This document shows, one piece after another, positions 1-31,622 of a stretch of DNA of 31,622 bases. This stretch comes from Escherichia phage 9W: the sequence record OM475431. One strand, written 5' to 3'. The translations under genes and the position numbers were made by a program. Positions within the stretch are counted from its first letter, which is position 1; the number at the start of each line of letters is the position of its first letter. The notes below the pieces were generated by a model. It made no database searches and was not told the DNA's origin. It worked only from the letters and a program-made list of their open reading frames with translations.

Positions 1-320
1 ACCTCAAATTAAGCCATTTAATGATAAATTTAAGTCTGTATTGACGAAACCGTAAGAGGTGCGTTGCGTTGCATTTTTTTGCATCTTCAAGGATTAATTT
101 CTGCATCTTTATTTTGCCAGTACTGATGTGCTTTTAATGGACTCATGCAACTGCATTAAAACCGCCCCATGAAGCGGGCGGGCGAGGCGGGGAAAGCACT
201 GCGCGCTGGCGGTGGTGCTGATTTTATTTTTTCAGCGTCTGAGCGCGTCGTGACGGCGTTTGGATTGTGCGCCGGGGGCGCTGGTGTGTCTGCGGGGTGT
301 TTTGTGCGGTGGTGAGCGTG
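1..320. repeat. Terminal direct repeat, copy 1; identical to 31303-31622 (circular or terminally redundant representation)
   Basis: Direct comparison of the two window ends. The first 55 nt are the 3' end of the CDS that ends at 31357. Confidence 0.95.
181..199. other. cos: cos cohesive-end site (19-mer GGCGAGGCGGGGAAAGCAC) within a GC-rich dyad region
   Basis: Matches the P2 cohesive-end 19-mer as I recall it; lies immediately downstream of the convergent Q gene, as in P2. Second copy at 31483-31501. Confidence 0.6.
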
Positions 321-26400: not shown

Positions 26401-26672
26401 GTATTCGTATCGAAATTGGCGAACGTTATGTCGTTACCAGTGACAGCTTTCAGTTTATTCTCCACGAGAAAAAGAGAGCGGAAAGCGGTAAAAACGCCGG
26501 TCAGGAATGGCTGTCGGTGGTTGGTTATTACCCGAAATTAAGCCAGCTCGTTTCCGGCCTGATGCATCACGATATTCTGACCGGAAGCGCAAAGTCTTTT
26601 GCTGATTTAAACGCGCAGGTTGAGCAACTCAGCAAGCGTTGTTCAGAGGCTTTTGGCTCATATGGCCGTTAA
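26397..26672 (+). CDS. Hypothetical early protein (P2 orf83 position)
   Basis: 91-aa ORF; overlaps the A start by 11 nt. Confidence 0.6.
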   Translation: MSIRIEIGERYVVTSDSFQFILHEKKRAESGKNAGQEWLSVVGYYPKLSQLVSGLMHHDILTGSAKSFADLNAQVEQLSKRCSEAFGSYGR

Positions 26673-28947
26673 AGCCTCCGGGCGTTTTGTCCCTCCGTCA
26701 GCATTTGCCGCAGGCACCGGTAAGGCGTTTACCGGTGCTTATGCATGGAACGCGCCACGCGAGGCCGTCGGGCGCGAAAGACCCCTTACACGTGACGAGA
26801 TGCGTCAGGTGCAAGGTGTTTTATCCACGATTAACCGCCTGCCTTACTTTTTGCGCTCGCTGTTTACTTCACGCTATGACTACATCCGGCGCAATAAAAG
26901 CCCGGTGCACGGGTTTTATTTTCTCACATCCACTTTTCAGCGTCGTTTATGGCCGCGCATTGAGCGTGTGAATCAGCGCCATGAAATGAACACCGACGCG
27001 TCGTTGCTGTTTCTGGCAGAGCGTGACCATTATGCGCGTCTGCCGGGGATGAATGACAAGGAGCTGAAAAAGTTTGCCGCCCGTATCTCATCGCAGCTTT
27101 TCATGATGTATGAGGAACTCTGCGATGCCTGGGTGGATGCGCATGGCGAGAAAGAATCGCTGTTTACGGATGAGGCACAGGCTCACCTGTATGGTCATGT
27201 TGCTGGCGCTGCACGAGCTTTCAATATTTCCCCTCTCTACTGGAAAAAATACCGTAAAGGGCAGATGACCACGAGGCAGGCATATTCTGCCATTGCCCGT
27301 CTGTTTAACGATGAGTGGTGGATTAGTCAGCTTAAAGGCCAGCGTATGCGCTGGCATGAGGCGTTACTGATTGCTGTCGGGGAGGTCAATAAAGACCGTT
27401 CTCCTTATGCCAGTAAACATGCCATTCGTGATGTGCGTGCACGCCGCCAGGCAAATCTGGAATTTCTTAAATCGTGTGATCTCGAAAACAGGGAAACCGG
27501 CGAGCGCATCGACCTTATCAGTAAGGTGATGGGCAGTATTTCTAATCCTGAAATTCGCCGGATGGAGCTGATGAACACCATTGCCGGTATTGAGCGTTAC
27601 GCCGCAGCAGAGGGTGATGTGGGGATGTTTATCACGCTGACCGCGCCGTCAAAGTATCACCCGACACGTCAGGTTGGAAAAGGCGAAAGTAAAACCGTCC
27701 AGCTAAATCACGGCTGGAACGATGAGGCATTTAATCCAAAGGATGCGCAGCGTTATCTCTGCCGTATCTGGAGCCTGATGCGCACGGCATTCAAGGATAA
27801 TGATTTACAGGTCTACGGTTTGCGTGTCGTCGAGCCACACCACGACGGAACGCCGCACTGGCATATGATGCTTTTTTGTAATCCGCGCCAGCGTAACCAG
27901 ATTATCGAAATCATGCGTCGCTATGCGCTCAAAGAGGATGGCGACGAAAGAGGAGCCGCGCGAAACCGTTTTCAGGCAAAACACCTTAATCGGGGCGGTG
28001 CTGCGGGGTATATCGCGAAATACATCTCAAAAAACATCGACGGCTATGCACTGGATGGTCAGCTCGATAATGATACCGGTAGGCCGCTGAAAGACACAGC
28101 TGCTGCTGTTACCGCATGGGCGTCAACGTGGCGCATTCCGCAATTTAAAACGGTTGGTCTGCCGACAATGGGGGCTTACCGTGAACTACGCAAATTGCCT
28201 CGCGGCGTCAGCATTGCTGATGAGTTTGACGAGCGCGTCGAGGCTGCACGCGCCGCCGCAGACAGTGGTGATTTTGCGTTGTATATCAGCGCGCAGGGTG
28301 GGGCAAATGTTCCGCGCGATTGTCAGACTGTCAGAGTCGCCCGTAGCCCGTCGGATGACGTTAACGAGTACGAGGAAGAGGTCGAGAGAGTGGTCGGCAT
28401 TTACGCGCCGCATCTCGGCGCGCGTCATATTCATATCACCAGAACGACGGACTGGCGCATTGTGCCGAAAGTGCCGGTCGTTGAGCCTTTGACGTTAAAA
28501 AGCGGCATCGCCGCGCCTCGGAGTCCTGTCAATAACTGTGGAAAGCTCACCGGTGGTGATACTTCGTCACCGGCTCCCACGCCTTCTGAACACGCCGCAG
28601 CAGTGCTTAATCTGGTTGATGATGGTGTTATCGAATGGAATGACCCGGAGGTCGTGAGGGCGCTCAGGGGTGCATTAAAACACGACCTGAGAACGCCAAA
28701 CCGTCAACAAAGAAACGGAAGCCCGTTAAAACCACATGAAATTGCACCATCGGCCAGACTGACCCGGTCGGAAAGAATGCAAATTACCCGTATCCGCGTT
28801 GACCTTGCTCAGAACGGTATCAGGCCGCAGCGATGGGAGCTTGAGGCGCAGGCGCGTGGCGCGACCGTAAATTATGACGGGAAAAAATTCACGTATCCGG
28901 TCGCTGATGAGTGGCCGGGATTCTCAACAGTAATGGAGTGGAAATGA
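26662..28947 (+). CDS. A: Rolling-circle replication initiator (origin-nicking endonuclease) A
   Basis: Start at ATG 26662 (MAVKASGRFVPPS...) gives 761 aa as in P2 gpA; the track ORF begins at an upstream TTG; HxH-like motif (PHWHMM) and conserved tyrosines. Confidence 0.88.
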   Translation: MAVKASGRFVPPSAFAAGTGKAFTGAYAWNAPREAVGRERPLTRDEMRQVQGVLSTINRLPYFLRSLFTSRYDYIRRNKSPVHGFYFLTSTFQRRLWPRIERVNQRHEMNTDASLLFLAERDHYARLPGMNDKELKKFAARISSQLFMMYEELCDAWVDAHGEKESLFTDEAQAHLYGHVAGAARAFNISPLYWKKYRKGQMTTRQAYSAIARLFNDEWWISQLKGQRMRWHEALLIAVGEVNKDRSPYASKHAIRDVRARRQANLEFLKSCDLENRETGERIDLISKVMGSISNPEIRRMELMNTIAGIERYAAAEGDVGMFITLTAPSKYHPTRQVGKGESKTVQLNHGWNDEAFNPKDAQRYLCRIWSLMRTAFKDNDLQVYGLRVVEPHHDGTPHWHMMLFCNPRQRNQIIEIMRRYALKEDGDERGAARNRFQAKHLNRGGAAGYIAKYISKNIDGYALDGQLDNDTGRPLKDTAAAVTAWASTWRIPQFKTVGLPTMGAYRELRKLPRGVSIADEFDERVEAARAAADSGDFALYISAQGGANVPRDCQTVRVARSPSDDVNEYEEEVERVVGIYAPHLGARHIHITRTTDWRIVPKVPVVEPLTLKSGIAAPRSPVNNCGKLTGGDTSSPAPTPSEHAAAVLNLVDDGVIEWNDPEVVRALRGALKHDLRTPNRQQRNGSPLKPHEIAPSARLTRSERMQITRIRVDLAQNGIRPQRWELEAQARGATVNYDGKKFTYPVADEWPGFSTVMEWK

Positions 28948-29399
28948 TGGCAAAAATTCACGAGGTAAAGCTGCACGCAAAATATTTTGACCTTGTGCTG
29001 GAAGGAAAGAAACGCGCAGAGTTTCGGAAAAATGACCGTAATTATGAGCGCGGGGACACGTTGATTTTGCATGAATGGGGGCAGGGTGTGTTTACGGGGC
29101 GAAAGGTTGAAGCCCGGATAACAGATGTTACTGACCTGTCAGACTGGCTGGAAGACTATGTCTTGCTAAGTATTGAGCTGCTTAATACAGGCGCATATGA
29201 GATTGTGAACTGGAAAGAACTTAGTGAGCGTGGCCTGGTATTCAGAATTAATCATGAAATTATGCATCAGCTCGGCCTTGCTGTTATGTATGAACCAGAG
29301 ACGGGGATGTCTGGCGGGGCAATGGTCGCCACGGATGGAGCATGGAACTATTCAGATGAACAGATGGAGCGTGCACAGCAAAACGGGTGGCTTGGATAA
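28944..29399 (+). CDS. ASCH/PUA-like (DUF3850-type) protein with a C-terminal extension (P2 orf91 position)
   Basis: ATG overlaps the A stop (ATGA). N-terminus KIHEVKLHAKYFDLVLEGKKRAEFRKNDRNYERGDTLILHEW resembles the ASCH/DUF3850 fold. About 151 aa, longer than the 91 aa implied by the P2 orf91 name. Confidence 0.6.
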   Translation: MMAKIHEVKLHAKYFDLVLEGKKRAEFRKNDRNYERGDTLILHEWGQGVFTGRKVEARITDVTDLSDWLEDYVLLSIELLNTGAYEIVNWKELSERGLVFRINHEIMHQLGLAVMYEPETGMSGGAMVATDGAWNYSDEQMERAQQNGWLG

Positions 29400-29605
29400 T
29401 GCACAGAATACCAGGCGAGATACCGCACCATAAAACTAAAAATATCAAGCTGATGGCTATTGTTCAGCGTTTACAGCGGATTATGGTCAACGAAAATCTG
29501 ACGCCCGATGAGCTGGTCGGGTGTGCCGAAATAGTACGGGATAATTACGGGCGGCTTAACTATATCGGTCAGTCCAGAGTTGCGCCACCACCACGCAGAC
29601 GATAG
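29399..29605 (+). CDS. Small hypothetical protein
   Basis: 68-aa ORF whose ATG overlaps the preceding stop (TAATG); an in-frame GTG at 29387 is an alternative start; weak Shine-Dalgarno. Confidence 0.4.
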   Translation: MHRIPGEIPHHKTKNIKLMAIVQRLQRIMVNENLTPDELVGCAEIVRDNYGRLNYIGQSRVAPPPRRR

Positions 29606-29829
29606 AGAACACCGCCAGTCGTGAAACTTGTTTTCAGGGCTGGCGGGGTTGAACAACGAGCGAAGCGAGACGTTAGTTGACAGACATATTTTTACTACGT
29701 TGGTGCTGGTTTTTGACGGTTGAAAGGAGTTAGGTTGGAGAGCTAACAACTTACAAATATTCAAAAGTAAGCATCCTGTTGCTAACATGAGGTTGATTTT
29801 TTATGTGGATGATGCAAAAAGGATAGCTA

Positions 29830-30560
29830 TGGATACTATAATCGCTTTTCTATCACTCGCTTTTTTCGTTGCTTTCTTCATCGGGTTAATCAAGCCATCA
29901 CTGGTGCGAATGCCAAACCGCAAACGTGCAAGTGCGGTTTATCTCGGAGGAGGTTTTGTATTGAGCATAATTGGTTCAATACTCTATCCAACAGAAAAAA
30001 GCCAGCCAGTTGCTAAAACTGAAACATCAACCGTTGCAGAACACAAAGTCCAAAAAACATTCGAATATGGTGAAAAAACACTCAAGGAATATCGGAACGA
30101 GTCAAAGAAAACACGACACGATATTGTGAATAGTTACATTGATTTTAAGGAAGTTCCAGCCACCGCGTCAGATGCGTTTTATGCCTGCATGAGTGAGTAT
30201 ACATTTACCAAAGATGATGAGTTGAAACTCGGTGATGTTCTTGGGTGGTGCTTTAATGATTATGAAAATGACCCGAGTTCACTAAACAATAAAATCAATC
30301 TTGATACATTTCAGAGTAATTTTAGTGGTTGGGATGGTTCTTATCGTCCATTGGAAAAACTAATTAAAGATAATATGAACGATGATTCATCTTATAAACA
30401 TGTGTCAACGGTATATCATCTGGTTTTGAATAAAGACCCGCATGCCATTGTGAAAACCACGTTTCGCGGAACTAATGCTTATGGCGGAGTGGTGAAACAG
30501 ACGATTGCTGCGCGTGTCAATGTAGAAACAGGTGAGGTTGTATCAATTATAAGTGAGTGA
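29830..30560 (+). CDS. Hypothetical two-helix membrane protein (cargo gene 1 at the P2 tin/old position)
   Basis: ATG at 29830 with an AAGGA Shine-Dalgarno (the track ORF starts at 29787, 14 codons upstream, with no Shine-Dalgarno). Two N-terminal hydrophobic helices separated by a basic loop (KPSLVRMPNRKRAS), then a soluble domain of about 180 aa; very AT-rich. Confidence 0.7.
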
Positions 30561-30658
30561 ACTGTGCCAGAATGATAAAGATGCCAGCATTTATGCTGGC
30601 AATCATAAAAATAGTGACTAGCAAAAATTGGTGTCTGGTTTTAATGTGAGATTAGAAA

Positions 30659-31357
30659 ATGAATAGATGTAAATATATTTTAAGAGGTTTGTTGCTGAAG
30701 TTTAAAAGTATAAGTTCTATGCATTTGTTATTTGTTTTAATAACGGCTTGTCTATTCTTTTTTATAGGGTGTTACGTGGGTTATAGTGGTATTGGTTTGA
30801 ATGGTGACACTAAATACCAATTAATTACAATACCTTTTTTGACCATGTTGGGTACTTGGGTTTCTGGGGTGGGAGCATTTTCTGCTGTTGCGACATCATT
30901 GTTGTTGGCACACCGTTCGCTAAAGGAAAATTCAGAAGAAATTGCTATTCGATATAGCATGGTGTTAATGCCATCAATGTACTTACCTAGCACTACAGAT
31001 ACAGCAATATCAATAACCATAACAAACAAAAGAAAAGTAAGGAGTAATATTCAATCGGTTGTTTTGCAATTTTCTAATAATAAAGCAATGAATATATTGG
31101 TAAACCCCGGGACGCTTATCTCTGGCAAGTTACCGCATGTTTTAGAAGACTATGGTGATATATTGACGCTTATAATTCCAGAGAGCATTATCGCATCAGT
31201 AACTGATGAGGGGTTCGTAAAAGAATGTCAGGGGAATACTCTTGGAGAAGGTAGTGTCGTAGTTCACACAACGACAAAAACATTTGTAAAAAAATTAACA
31301 TTACCTCAAATTAAGCCATTTAATGATAAATTTAAGTCTGTATTGACGAAACCGTAA
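30659..31357 (+). CDS. Hypothetical two-helix membrane protein (cargo gene 2 at the P2 tin/old position)
   Basis: 232-aa ORF; two hydrophobic helices in the N-terminal third, then a Ser/Thr-rich soluble domain; about 23% GC in a sampled 60-nt stretch; its 3' end is duplicated at 1-55. Confidence 0.7.
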   Translation: MNRCKYILRGLLLKFKSISSMHLLFVLITACLFFFIGCYVGYSGIGLNGDTKYQLITIPFLTMLGTWVSGVGAFSAVATSLLLAHRSLKENSEEIAIRYSMVLMPSMYLPSTTDTAISITITNKRKVRSNIQSVVLQFSNNKAMNILVNPGTLISGKLPHVLEDYGDILTLIIPESIIASVTDEGFVKECQGNTLGEGSVVVHTTTKTFVKKLTLPQIKPFNDKFKSVLTKP

Positions 31358-31622
31358 GAGGTGCGTTGCGTTGCATTTTTTTGCATCTTCAAGGATTAAT
31401 TTCTGCATCTTTATTTTGCCAGTACTGATGTGCTTTTAATGGACTCATGCAACTGCATTAAAACCGCCCCATGAAGCGGGCGGGCGAGGCGGGGAAAGCA
31501 CTGCGCGCTGGCGGTGGTGCTGATTTTATTTTTTCAGCGTCTGAGCGCGTCGTGACGGCGTTTGGATTGTGCGCCGGGGGCGCTGGTGTGTCTGCGGGGT
31601 GTTTTGTGCGGTGGTGAGCGTG
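31303..31622. repeat. Terminal direct repeat, copy 2 (identical to 1-320); includes the second cos copy at 31483-31501
   Basis: Exact identity with the window start. Confidence 0.95.

What the first reader, a model, noticed from the sequence alone, without database searches (positions are those of the whole stretch)
29606..31357. tin/old hotspot carries a two-gene AT-rich module of membrane proteins and no Old homologue: candidate undescribed anti-phage or superinfection-exclusion system
Where P2 encodes Tin and the large Old ATPase-nuclease there are two tandem genes (243/257 aa and 232 aa). Each starts with two transmembrane helices followed by a soluble domain with no Walker, nuclease or other recognisable motif. 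The region is very AT-rich compared with the backbone, lies next to cos in the best-known P2 defence hotspot, and is preceded by a 224-bp leader with a 7-bp inverted repeat (29612-29618 / 29640-29646). Paired membrane proteins suggest a sensor-effector or abortive-infection membrane-depolarising module.
Basis: partly seen in the sequence, partly recalled or inferred. Interest (0 to 1): 0.85.

Follow-up and report, generated by a model that had tools for sequence, protein, structure and literature searches.

The report
Phage 186 Orf97 homologue plus unrelated cargo gene
The two membrane-protein genes next to cos in this P2-like phage are real, but they are two separate cargo genes: the first is a close relative of coliphage 186 Orf97, already recorded as blocking 186 infection, and the second is a catalogued but untested membrane protein.

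Summary
Two tandem, AT-rich, + strand genes (29829-30560, 243 aa; 30659-31357, 232 aa) fill the gpA-cos slot of Peduovirus P22H4. Each has two N-terminal TM helices. Neither resembles Tin, Old or any PADLOC/Pfam/NCBIfam family.

Gene 1 is 77.6% identical to coliphage 186 Orf97, whose GenBank note reads 'expression from plasmid blocks 186 infection'. So the superinfection-exclusion idea fits, but the gene is not undescribed. I predict an N-out/C-out inner-membrane protein with a periplasmic domain carrying two invariant cysteines. That domain has an HdeA/HdeB-like helical part and a cystatin-like part.

The pair is probably not a module.
- Gene 1 occurs in 255 of 5426 complete E. coli genomes. 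It is followed by unrelated genes, or stands alone in other species.
- In 186-type prophages it is backbone (LexA box-tum-orf97). A conserved hairpin element separates it from the variable slot where gene-2 relatives sit.
- An Enterobacter gene-2 relative lacks gene 1.
- Rousset et al. 2022 list the two as separate single-gene entries (#12, #30), and neither peptide appears in their table of cloned systems.

Gene 2 (TM hairpin plus Ig-like beta-sandwich) remains uncharacterised.

Verdict: new member of a known kind, modest interest.

The parts
29608..29676 (+). Conserved double-hairpin element that marks the left border of the variable slot. It is backbone, not cargo.
   Evidence: Folds at -32.7 kcal/mol, z -4.7. 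It is 84% identical to 186 record positions 30344-30412, which lie downstream of orf97 there. It is present in 12 aligned loci with a kept 15-18 bp stem and 3 pairs with compensatory changes. Its position relative to gene 1 differs between P2-type and 186-type loci. No Rfam match.
29677..29778 (+). Spacer of about 100 nt found in the P2-type E. coli loci aligned here and not alignable to the 186-type loci. No convincing sigma-70 promoter and no LexA box.
   Evidence: Promoter scan finds nothing here. No CTG-N10-CAG or full LexA box. Aligns to other E. coli P2-type loci only.
29779..29828 (+). Start of homology with the phage 186 orf97 cassette. Contains a decayed remnant of terminator t95a plus the ribosome-binding site of gene 1.
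   Evidence: blastn homology with 186 runs window 29779-30547 = 186 record 29556-30322. The t95a hairpin is strong in 186 (-23.5 kcal/mol, z -3.7) but not above shuffles in the window (z -0.2). The 186 record annotates t95a as a partial terminator.
29829..30560 (+). Gene 1: Orf97-family protein, 243 aa. Two TM helices (3-21, 36-53) with a strongly basic cytoplasmic loop. The predicted periplasmic domain has an HdeA/HdeB-like helical subdomain with invariant C120/C141 and a C-terminal helix plus 4-strand cystatin-like subdomain.
30582..30601 (.). 8-bp GC-rich hairpin between the two genes. It has no T-run on the + strand, so it is not a convincing + strand terminator.
   Evidence: Terminator scan calls it on the - strand only. 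Fold -15.2 kcal/mol, z -2.9.
30659..31357 (+). Gene 2: 232 aa (or 212 aa from ATG 30719). A TM hairpin carrying the family signature MLGxW-S-x6-A-x3-S, then an Ig-like beta-sandwich domain and a C-terminal helix. An independent hotspot cargo gene of unknown function.
31483..31501 (+). cos, the 19-nt cohesive-end sequence GGCGAGGCGGGGAAAGCAC, at the right border of the locus.
   Evidence: Exact match at 181 and 31483. The window ends overlap by 320 bp.

Best explanation
The locus holds two independent cargo cassettes in the cos-proximal gpA-Q hotspot of a P2-like phage.

Gene 1 is an Orf97-family protein. It is a small inner-membrane protein with N-out/C-out topology and a cytoplasmic basic loop. 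It displays a disulfide-containing domain of about 190 aa in the periplasm. By homology to 186 Orf97, it excludes superinfecting P2/186-like phages. The step most likely blocked is passage of the DNA or ejection machinery through the periplasm and inner membrane, because that is where its only sizeable domain sits.

In 186-type phages the gene is the distal gene of the LexA-controlled tum operon. Here it has lost tum, the LexA box and the t95a terminator, and it sits at the tail of the rightward early/replication gene block. In both settings it is therefore plausibly made when the phage goes lytic.

Gene 2 is a separate single-gene cassette. It encodes a TM hairpin plus an Ig-like beta-sandwich, probably cytoplasmic. 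It was swapped into the slot between the 3' end of orf97 and cos. Its function is unknown. My best guess is another membrane-based exclusion or defence determinant.

Shown: the homology, architecture, distribution and junctions. Taken from the database record: the exclusion phenotype of 186 Orf97. Inferred: topology, step blocked, timing of expression, and anything about the function of gene 2.
For: Gene 1 is Orf97.
- tblastn gives 77.6% identity over 99% of the length to 186 orf97.
- The 186 record annotates p95 (with a putative LexA site), tum, t95a, orf97 ('expression from plasmid blocks 186 infection') and t95b.
- DNA homology between window and 186 covers exactly t95a' to the end of orf97.

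Topology and domain.
- Loop K+R net +4.6, N-terminus -0.8, C120/C141 invariant in 38 sequences.
- The soluble part is modelled with confidence.
- It resembles the periplasmic proteins HdeA, HdeB and YmgD, and small cystatin-like folds.
- BFVD hits to the C-terminal subdomain include a phage lipoprotein.

The two genes are independent.
- Gene 1 is in 255 of 5426 E. coli genomes; the pair is in 6.
- Gene 1 is followed by unrelated proteins of 311, 224, 198 and 260 aa, or by gene-2 alleles.
- Gene 1 is the sole cargo or backbone gene in 186, Kluyvera, Enterobacter hormaechei, Serratia and Yersinia.
- The border element lies between orf97 and gene-2 relatives in Klebsiella, Citrobacter, Salmonella and S164.
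- An Enterobacter gene-2 relative has no gene 1.
- Homology breakpoints cluster in the last codons of gene 1.
- Rousset et al. list them as separate single-gene systems.

Expression context.
- tum and a LexA box lie upstream in most 186-type loci (LexA box missing from the pattern scan in 2 of them). Both are absent from the window.
- t95a is lost in the window.
Against: - All 42 complete E. coli genomes that carry one of three very different gene-2 alleles (29 + 7 + 6) have gene 1 directly upstream. In the window and in P24A7b no border element separates the two genes. A functional link is therefore not excluded.
- The exclusion phenotype comes from a one-line record note for the 186 protein expressed from a plasmid. 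I could not read the primary paper. Nothing shows that the P22H4 protein does the same, or against which phages.
- No promoter was found for either gene. The conserved hairpin upstream of gene 1 might terminate early transcription, so expression is unproven.
- The topology of gene 2 rests on a weak charge bias.
Confidence: 0.62

Rival explanations
1. One reading: the two membrane proteins form one two-gene defence or exclusion system. The conserved Orf97-like component would work with a fast-diversifying partner, for example as constant effector plus variable sensor, or the reverse.
For: - Strict one-way association in E. coli. All 42 of 42 genomes with any of three gene-2 alleles (about 20-29% identical to each other) have gene 1 immediately upstream, on the same strand, 92-206 nt apart.
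- The same order is seen in Klebsiella, Citrobacter, Salmonella and Serratia.
- In Serratia the pair sits together with a SIR2 gene further downstream, so gene 2 adjoins gene 1 rather than cos.
- Both are 2-TM inner-membrane proteins.
- There is no obvious promoter or + strand terminator between them in the window.
Against: - Gene 1 is backbone in 186-type phages, so any cargo there adjoins it. The conserved border element lies between the two genes in 4 of 7 pair types examined.
- Gene 1 occurs with five unrelated neighbours or alone.
- 186 Orf97 is recorded as blocking infection on its own.
- A gene-2 subgroup occurs without gene 1.
- Allele swapping between orf97 and cos by homologous recombination explains the E. 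coli association without invoking function (breakpoints).
Confidence: 0.15
2. Gene 1 is not primarily an exclusion factor. It would be a lytic-cycle or host-fitness accessory: a periplasmic chaperone-like or envelope-modifying protein that helps the induced cell or the phage (envelope stress, lysis timing, release). The block of 186 infection would then be an overexpression artefact.
For: - It belongs to the SOS operon with the antirepressor tum in 186-type phages, so it is made at induction.
- The best structural matches are the periplasmic acid-stress chaperones HdeA and HdeB.
- The phenotype on record is from plasmid expression.
- The soluble domain belongs to a very large family (2842 cluster representatives) extending well beyond the P2/186-type prophage loci examined, for example Vibrio, Oxalobacter and Sulfurimonas.
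Against: - The gene is strongly conserved (53-95% identity across Enterobacterales) while sitting in or beside a hotspot dominated by anti-phage cargo.
- It persists in non-inducible P2-type phages without tum.
Confidence: 0.13
3. Gene 2 is an abortive-infection membrane effector: a toxin-like protein that depolarises the membrane when triggered, acting independently of gene 1.
For: - It is a single-gene cassette that by itself fills the defence hotspot in Klebsiella, Citrobacter and Salmonella prophages.
- It is membrane-embedded with a conserved glycine- and small-residue-rich TM2.
- The alleles diverge extremely (20-30% identity), as is common for defence genes.
- Translation signals are weak.
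Against: - No similarity to any PADLOC model.
- The soluble part is a generic beta-sandwich with no sensor or enzymatic motif.
- It does not appear in the table of cloned systems in Rousset et al..
- There is no evidence of toxicity or of a trigger.
Confidence: 0.1

Closest known systems
Coliphage 186 Orf97 (NP_052294.1), distal gene of the p95/tum SOS operon
   Same: Full-length homologue: 77.6% aa identity, same 243-aa length, same 2-TM plus soluble-domain build. DNA homology covers the t95a remnant through the ORF. The P22H4 record already uses the name Orf97.
   Different: In the window there is no tum, no p95/LexA box and no functional t95a hairpin. The gene lies to the right of the conserved border element, inside the variable slot, and is followed by another gene. 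In 186 it lies to the left of that element and is followed by t95b and cos. The last few codons differ.
P2 Tin and Old (same hotspot in phage P2)
   Same: Same genomic slot between gpA and cos. AT-rich accessory genes.
   Different: No sequence similarity to Tin. No ATPase or TOPRIM domain. Opposite strand: tin and old are transcribed leftward from their own promoter near cos, whereas these genes point rightward like gpA. Tin and Old carry no membrane annotation in the P2 record; that Tin acts on T-even replication and Old on lambda is from the record notes and my general knowledge.
Membrane-anchored superinfection-exclusion proteins (T4 Imm and Sp, P22 SieA, HK97 gp15, lactococcal Sie2009). 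Comparison from my own knowledge, not tested here.
   Same: Small phage-encoded inner-membrane proteins with an extracytoplasmic portion that block DNA entry of related phages. This matches the predicted architecture of gene 1 and the recorded phenotype of Orf97.
   Different: No sequence or fold match to any of them was found. The resemblance is functional and architectural only.
HdeA / HdeB / YmgD periplasmic small helical proteins
   Different: 5-16% identity. The Pfam scan returned no HdeA family. Gene 1 is membrane-anchored and carries a second, cystatin-like subdomain.
Rousset et al. 2022 P2-hotspot catalogue, entries #12 and #30 (PMC9122126, Table S5B)
   Same: Entry #12 is a gene-1 protein (210 occurrences, '2 TM'). 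Entry #30 is an S164-type gene-2 relative (119 occurrences, '2 TM').
   Different: The catalogue gives no function and no link to 186 Orf97. Neither peptide appears in the table of cloned systems. The P22H4 allele of gene 2 is only about 20% identical to entry #30.

Membership tests
Coliphage 186 Orf97 family (phrog_3403) | Full-length sequence homology to 186 Orf97 | tested here: met
   77.6% identity over residues 1-241. phrog_3403 E 1e-145.
Coliphage 186 Orf97 family (phrog_3403) | Conserved architecture: two TM helices, basic loop, soluble domain of about 190 aa with two cysteines | tested here: met
   38-sequence alignment with invariant F16, G19, P23, R31, C120, C141 and W168-G170-Y172-R173-P174-L175. 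Charge analysis. AF2 model.
Coliphage 186 Orf97 family (phrog_3403) | Location in the LexA-controlled tum (p95) SOS operon | tested here: not met
   No tum homologue and no LexA box in the window. Both are present in most 186-type loci (LexA box not found by the pattern scan in 2 of them). The t95a hairpin is lost. This is a contextual feature, not a protein feature.
Coliphage 186 Orf97 family (phrog_3403) | Blocks infection by 186 when expressed | not testable with these tools
The primary paper is not held in the library.
P2 Tin | Sequence homology to Tin (NP_046797.1) | tested here: not met
   BLASTP best E 1.2 for gene 1 and 6.3 for gene 2.
P2 Old / OLD-family nucleases | ABC-type ATPase plus TOPRIM domains | tested here: not met
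   No Pfam, NCBIfam or PADLOC hit in either protein. The proteins are 243 and 232 aa against 586 aa for Old.
Any defence system in PADLOC-DB v2 | Match to a PADLOC protein model | tested here: not met
   0 families for both proteins at E up to 1.
Two-gene operonic system (gene 1 + gene 2) | Reciprocal, context-independent co-occurrence of the two families | tested here: not met
   The association is one-directional. Gene 2 to gene 1 holds in 42 of 42 E. coli genomes. Only 42 of 255 gene-1 genomes carry one of these three gene-2 alleles; 0 of 16 gene-1 loci in the species survey had a gene-2 relative. Unrelated neighbours. Border element between the genes. Gene 2 without gene 1 in Enterobacter.
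Two-gene operonic system (gene 1 + gene 2) | Physical or functional interdependence of the two proteins | not testable with these tools
The profiles are unrelated.
HdeA/HdeB acid-stress chaperones | Sequence membership in the HdeA family, and fold | tested here: inconclusive

The most novel reading that the evidence does not exclude
Gene 2 represents a new, fast-diversifying family of single-gene, membrane-anchored anti-phage or exclusion determinants: a TM hairpin with a conserved MLGGW-S motif plus an Ig-like beta-sandwich. It would be confined to the cos-proximal slot of P2/186-like prophages. It might work on top of Orf97 to widen or change which phages are excluded, which would explain why every E. 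coli copy sits behind orf97.
Probability: 0.25. Interest if true: 0.55.

Novelty: new member of a known kind. Interest (0 to 1): 0.3.

Why it matters
The finding links an anonymous entry of the P2 defence-hotspot catalogue (Rousset #12, '2 TM', present in about 5% of complete E. coli genomes) to a gene with a phenotype on record, 186 Orf97.

It gives that gene a testable structural hypothesis: a periplasm-facing, disulfide-bonded domain on a 2-TM anchor, acting at DNA entry.

It shows how the same gene serves as SOS-operon backbone in 186-type phages and as mobile cargo in P2-type phages, with a conserved hairpin element marking the border of the slot.

It warns that strict adjacency in a recombination hotspot (42 of 42 genomes) can arise from a shared flanking anchor rather than from shared function.

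Gene 2 remains a cheap candidate to clone and test.

Tried and rejected
- Family scans. Pfam, NCBIfam and PADLOC gave nothing significant for either protein. PHROGs gave only 'unknown function' families.
- PDB. Profile searches of PDB sequences were empty or TM-helix noise.
- Rfam. The whole window and the locus gave nothing.
- Foldseek. afdb50 was not available. BFVD gave only weak hits to small uncharacterised phage proteins.
- Tin homology rejected.
- Relatedness of gene 1 and gene 2 rejected: hhalign probability 4%.
- Literature. Neither peptide nor accession appears in the Vassallo 2022 supplements. Accession and 'orf97' text searches found no relevant paper. A 2026 preprint on P2/P4 hotspots does not mention Orf97, 186 or tum. 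The primary 186 paper, which I recall from memory as Brumby et al. 1996 in Virology, is not held.
- Two-gene-system reading. I first took the gene-1/gene-2 adjacency in four other genera as support. I dropped that after finding the border element between the genes and tum-orf97 as backbone.
- Promoters. I looked for a promoter or LexA box upstream of gene 1 and between the genes and found none convincing.
- Domain partners. A Pfam scan of larger relatives of the gene-1 soluble domain gave no informative partner domains.
Full report
WHAT IS THERE

The window is Peduovirus P22H4 (LR595869.1), 100% identical, with window coordinate = record coordinate + 159. It was assembled with a 320-bp terminal overlap, and the 19-nt cos sequence lies at 181 and 31483.

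Downstream of gpA (26620-28947) come a DUF3850/ASCH+DUF7415 protein (28911-29399) and a 72-aa ORF (29387-29605). Two + strand ORFs then lie before cos. Gene 1 runs 29829-30560 (243 aa; an upstream ATG at 29787 would give 257 aa). Gene 2 runs 30659-31357 (232 aa).

GC falls from 0.50-0.59 in the backbone to 0.31-0.41 here. Neither protein matches Pfam, NCBIfam or PADLOC. Both match PHROGs of unknown function. Neither resembles P2 Tin, and no Old-like protein is present.

GENE 1 IS A HOMOLOGUE OF COLIPHAGE 186 ORF97

A tblastn search of phage records shows 77.6% identity over the full length to orf97 of phage 186. The P22H4 record itself labels a truncated version of this ORF 'Orf97'.

The 186 record annotates the following order: promoter p95 ('SOS-dependent transcription of SOS operon') with a putative LexA site, tum, t95a ('partial termination'), orf97 ('expression from plasmid blocks 186 infection'), t95b. 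I recall the primary paper as Brumby et al. 1996 in Virology. It is not in the library, so the phenotype rests on that record note.

DNA homology between window and 186 runs from inside t95a to a few codons before the orf97 stop (window 29779-30547).

The family is about 243 aa in the full-length members and spans Enterobacterales at 53-95% identity. The 243-aa start has an AGGA 8 nt upstream and matches all homologues, so the 257-aa form is unlikely.

WHAT THE GENE 1 PROTEIN LOOKS LIKE

In 38 family members the TM1-TM2 loop carries a net charge of +4.6. The N-terminus is at -0.8 and the stretch after TM2 is at -0.45. By the positive-inside rule this gives N-out/C-out, with the soluble domain in the periplasm. 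Two cysteines (C120, C141) are invariant, which fits a periplasmic disulfide.

An exhaustive profile search finds 2842 cluster representatives with the soluble domain, often only the last 80 residues or so, and sometimes behind a zinc ribbon plus TM anchor. Ten larger relatives showed no informative Pfam partner. It is therefore a large, unnamed family of membrane-anchored, probably extracytoplasmic domains.

GENE 2

Gene 2 belongs to a divergent family (46 clusters, 205-232 aa, 20-30% identity) found in Escherichia, Salmonella, Klebsiella, Citrobacter, Serratia and Enterobacter. The family has a conserved TM2 signature, M-L-G-x-W-x-S...A...S. Most members start directly at TM1, so the true start here may be M21 (30719).

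ARE THE TWO GENES A MODULE?

At first the data looked supportive. All 29 + 7 + 6 complete E. coli genomes that carry one of three gene-2 alleles have gene 1 directly upstream. The same order occurs in Klebsiella, Citrobacter, Salmonella and Serratia prophages. Four observations undo this.

1. A 69-nt double-hairpin element (window 29608-29676) is conserved in 12 loci from several genera, with a maintained 15-18 bp stem. In 186 and 186-type prophages it lies immediately after orf97. Gene-2 relatives sit to its right, filling the slot up to the conserved cos-proximal sequence. In those phages LexA box-tum-orf97 is backbone, so any cargo adjoins orf97.

2. In P2-type E. coli prophages, where the element lies before gene 1, gene 1 is followed by mutually unrelated genes. 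These are a 311-aa zinc-ribbon protein, a 224-aa protein, a 198-aa protein, a 260-aa tail-anchored protein, or a gene-2 allele. Gene 1 occurs in 255 of 5426 genomes, against 6 for this pair. It is the only gene between gpA/tum and cos in 186, Kluyvera, Enterobacter hormaechei, Serratia and Yersinia loci.

3. Homology breakpoints between phages cluster in the last codons of gene 1 (window about 30535-30551). The 3' end of orf97 and cos therefore act as recombination anchors between which cargo is swapped. This explains why gene-2 alleles imported from 186-type phages always land behind orf97.

4. An Enterobacter subgroup of the gene-2 family sits in a P2-type hotspot without gene 1, behind an 86-aa gene with a perfect LexA box.

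Rousset et al. 2022 curated the two as separate single-gene entries: #12 with 210 occurrences and #30 with 119 occurrences, both annotated only '2 TM'. Neither peptide appears in their table of cloned systems. I therefore read the locus as two independent cassettes. About 15% remains for a functional pair, mainly because the border element is missing between the genes in the window and in P24A7b.

EXPRESSION

In P2, tin and old are transcribed leftward from a promoter near cos. Here both genes point rightward, like gpA. In 186-type loci orf97 is behind the LexA box and tum and the partial terminator t95a (strong hairpin, z -3.7). In the window tum and the LexA box are absent and the t95a hairpin has decayed (z -0.2). 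In Serratia and Yersinia the gene follows gpA directly.

No convincing promoter precedes either gene, and no + strand terminator separates them. In both contexts the gene is placed where it would be made on entry into lytic growth (SOS operon, or the tail of the early operon). This is an inference. The conserved hairpin might terminate early transcription, and a weak promoter could exist in the unique 100 nt.

MECHANISM I COMMIT TO

Gene 1 encodes an inner-membrane, periplasm-facing exclusion protein. It blocks superinfection by P2/186-like phages at the stage where the ejected DNA or ejection proteins cross the periplasm and inner membrane.

- Homology is shown.
- The phenotype is taken from the 186 record.
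- Topology and the step blocked are inferred.

Gene 2 is an unrelated hotspot cassette of unknown function. Given where it lives, a membrane-based exclusion or defence role is the best guess. Abortive infection by depolarisation is possible but has no support.

COMPARISON AND NOVELTY

Gene 1 is a member of the Orf97 family. It meets the sequence and architecture tests but not the tum-operon context test. It works like the small membrane exclusion proteins of other phages (T4 Imm and Sp, P22 SieA, HK97 gp15; from my own knowledge) but is not related to them by any test run here.

The finding is a new member of a known kind, not an undescribed system. The new points are modest:
- the link between a catalogue entry and 186 Orf97;
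- the structural and topological hypothesis for Orf97;
- the conserved border element;
- the cargo-swapping explanation for the gene-1/gene-2 adjacency.

Interest 0.3.

Noticed in passing
window 1-320 and 31303-31622: The two ends of the window are an exact 320-bp direct repeat, so this is a circular assembly overlap and the genome is 31302 bp. cos (GGCGAGGCGGGGAAAGCAC) therefore appears twice, at 181 and 31483, and the first 52 nt of the window are the 3' end of gene 2.
   Followed up: yes
window 29608-29676; also L038 (phage 186) 4344-4419, L007 6740-6815, L023 5892-5967, L032 4549-4624: A 69-nt double-hairpin element conserved across P2-type and 186-type phages of several genera (stem of 15-18 bp, 3 pairs with compensatory changes, no U-tract after it, no Rfam family). 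It sits at the left border of the variable slot. Its function is unknown; it could be a terminator, an RNA processing site or a recombination anchor.
   Followed up: partly
L032 4645-4664 and 4684-4944 (Enterobacter asburiae); L034 1249-1268; related 85-aa ORF in L010 6879-7136: A perfect LexA box (TACTGTATGTGCATACAGTA) precedes an 86-aa gene of unknown function (MAGYDLGFQVVYRGEALEYY...) in a P2-type hotspot, directly upstream of a gene-2 relative. This looks like an SOS-controlled moron unrelated to tum.
   Followed up: no
L012 (Photorhabdus), L016 and L018 (Xenorhabdus), L017 (Mixta): Orf97 homologues also occur away from cos: next to ogr and gpD in Photorhabdus and Xenorhabdus P2-like prophages, and next to an integrase in Mixta. 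The X. eapokensis copy replaces TM1 with an N-terminal zinc ribbon (MKLVKCKKCREEVPKKEKKCPKCG...).
   Followed up: partly
window 28911-29399 and 29387-29605: The gene after gpA encodes a DUF3850/ASCH + DUF7415 protein (162 aa as listed; RefSeq homologues are about 151 aa). It is followed by a 72-aa ORF (phrog_11386) conserved in P2-type prophages. Reference P2 (NC_001895) has a shorter Orf91 and lacks the element and this small ORF in the stretch examined.
   Followed up: no
LR595869.1 29802-30401 and 30929-31198 (window 29961-30560 and 31088-31357): The deposited P22H4 annotation calls both genes as N-terminally truncated ORFs (200 aa and 89 aa), which removes the TM helices. RefSeq E. coli records variously start gene 2 at 232, 212 or 193 aa.
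   Followed up: yes
L003 (phage S164) 3213-3277 and 4176-4255: S164 carries two copies of the border element, one before and one (diverged) after gene 1. This is what would be expected if an 'orf97-element-gene 2' block from a 186-type phage was inserted to the right of the P2-type element.
   Followed up: partly
L031 5814-8840 (Serratia proteamaculans); L027 2760-4247 (Klebsiella): Other cargo in the same prophage regions: a 1008-aa SIR2_2 protein downstream of the gene-1/gene-2 pair in Serratia, and a 495-aa reverse transcriptase (RVT_1) between gpA and the tum region in one Klebsiella prophage.
   Followed up: no
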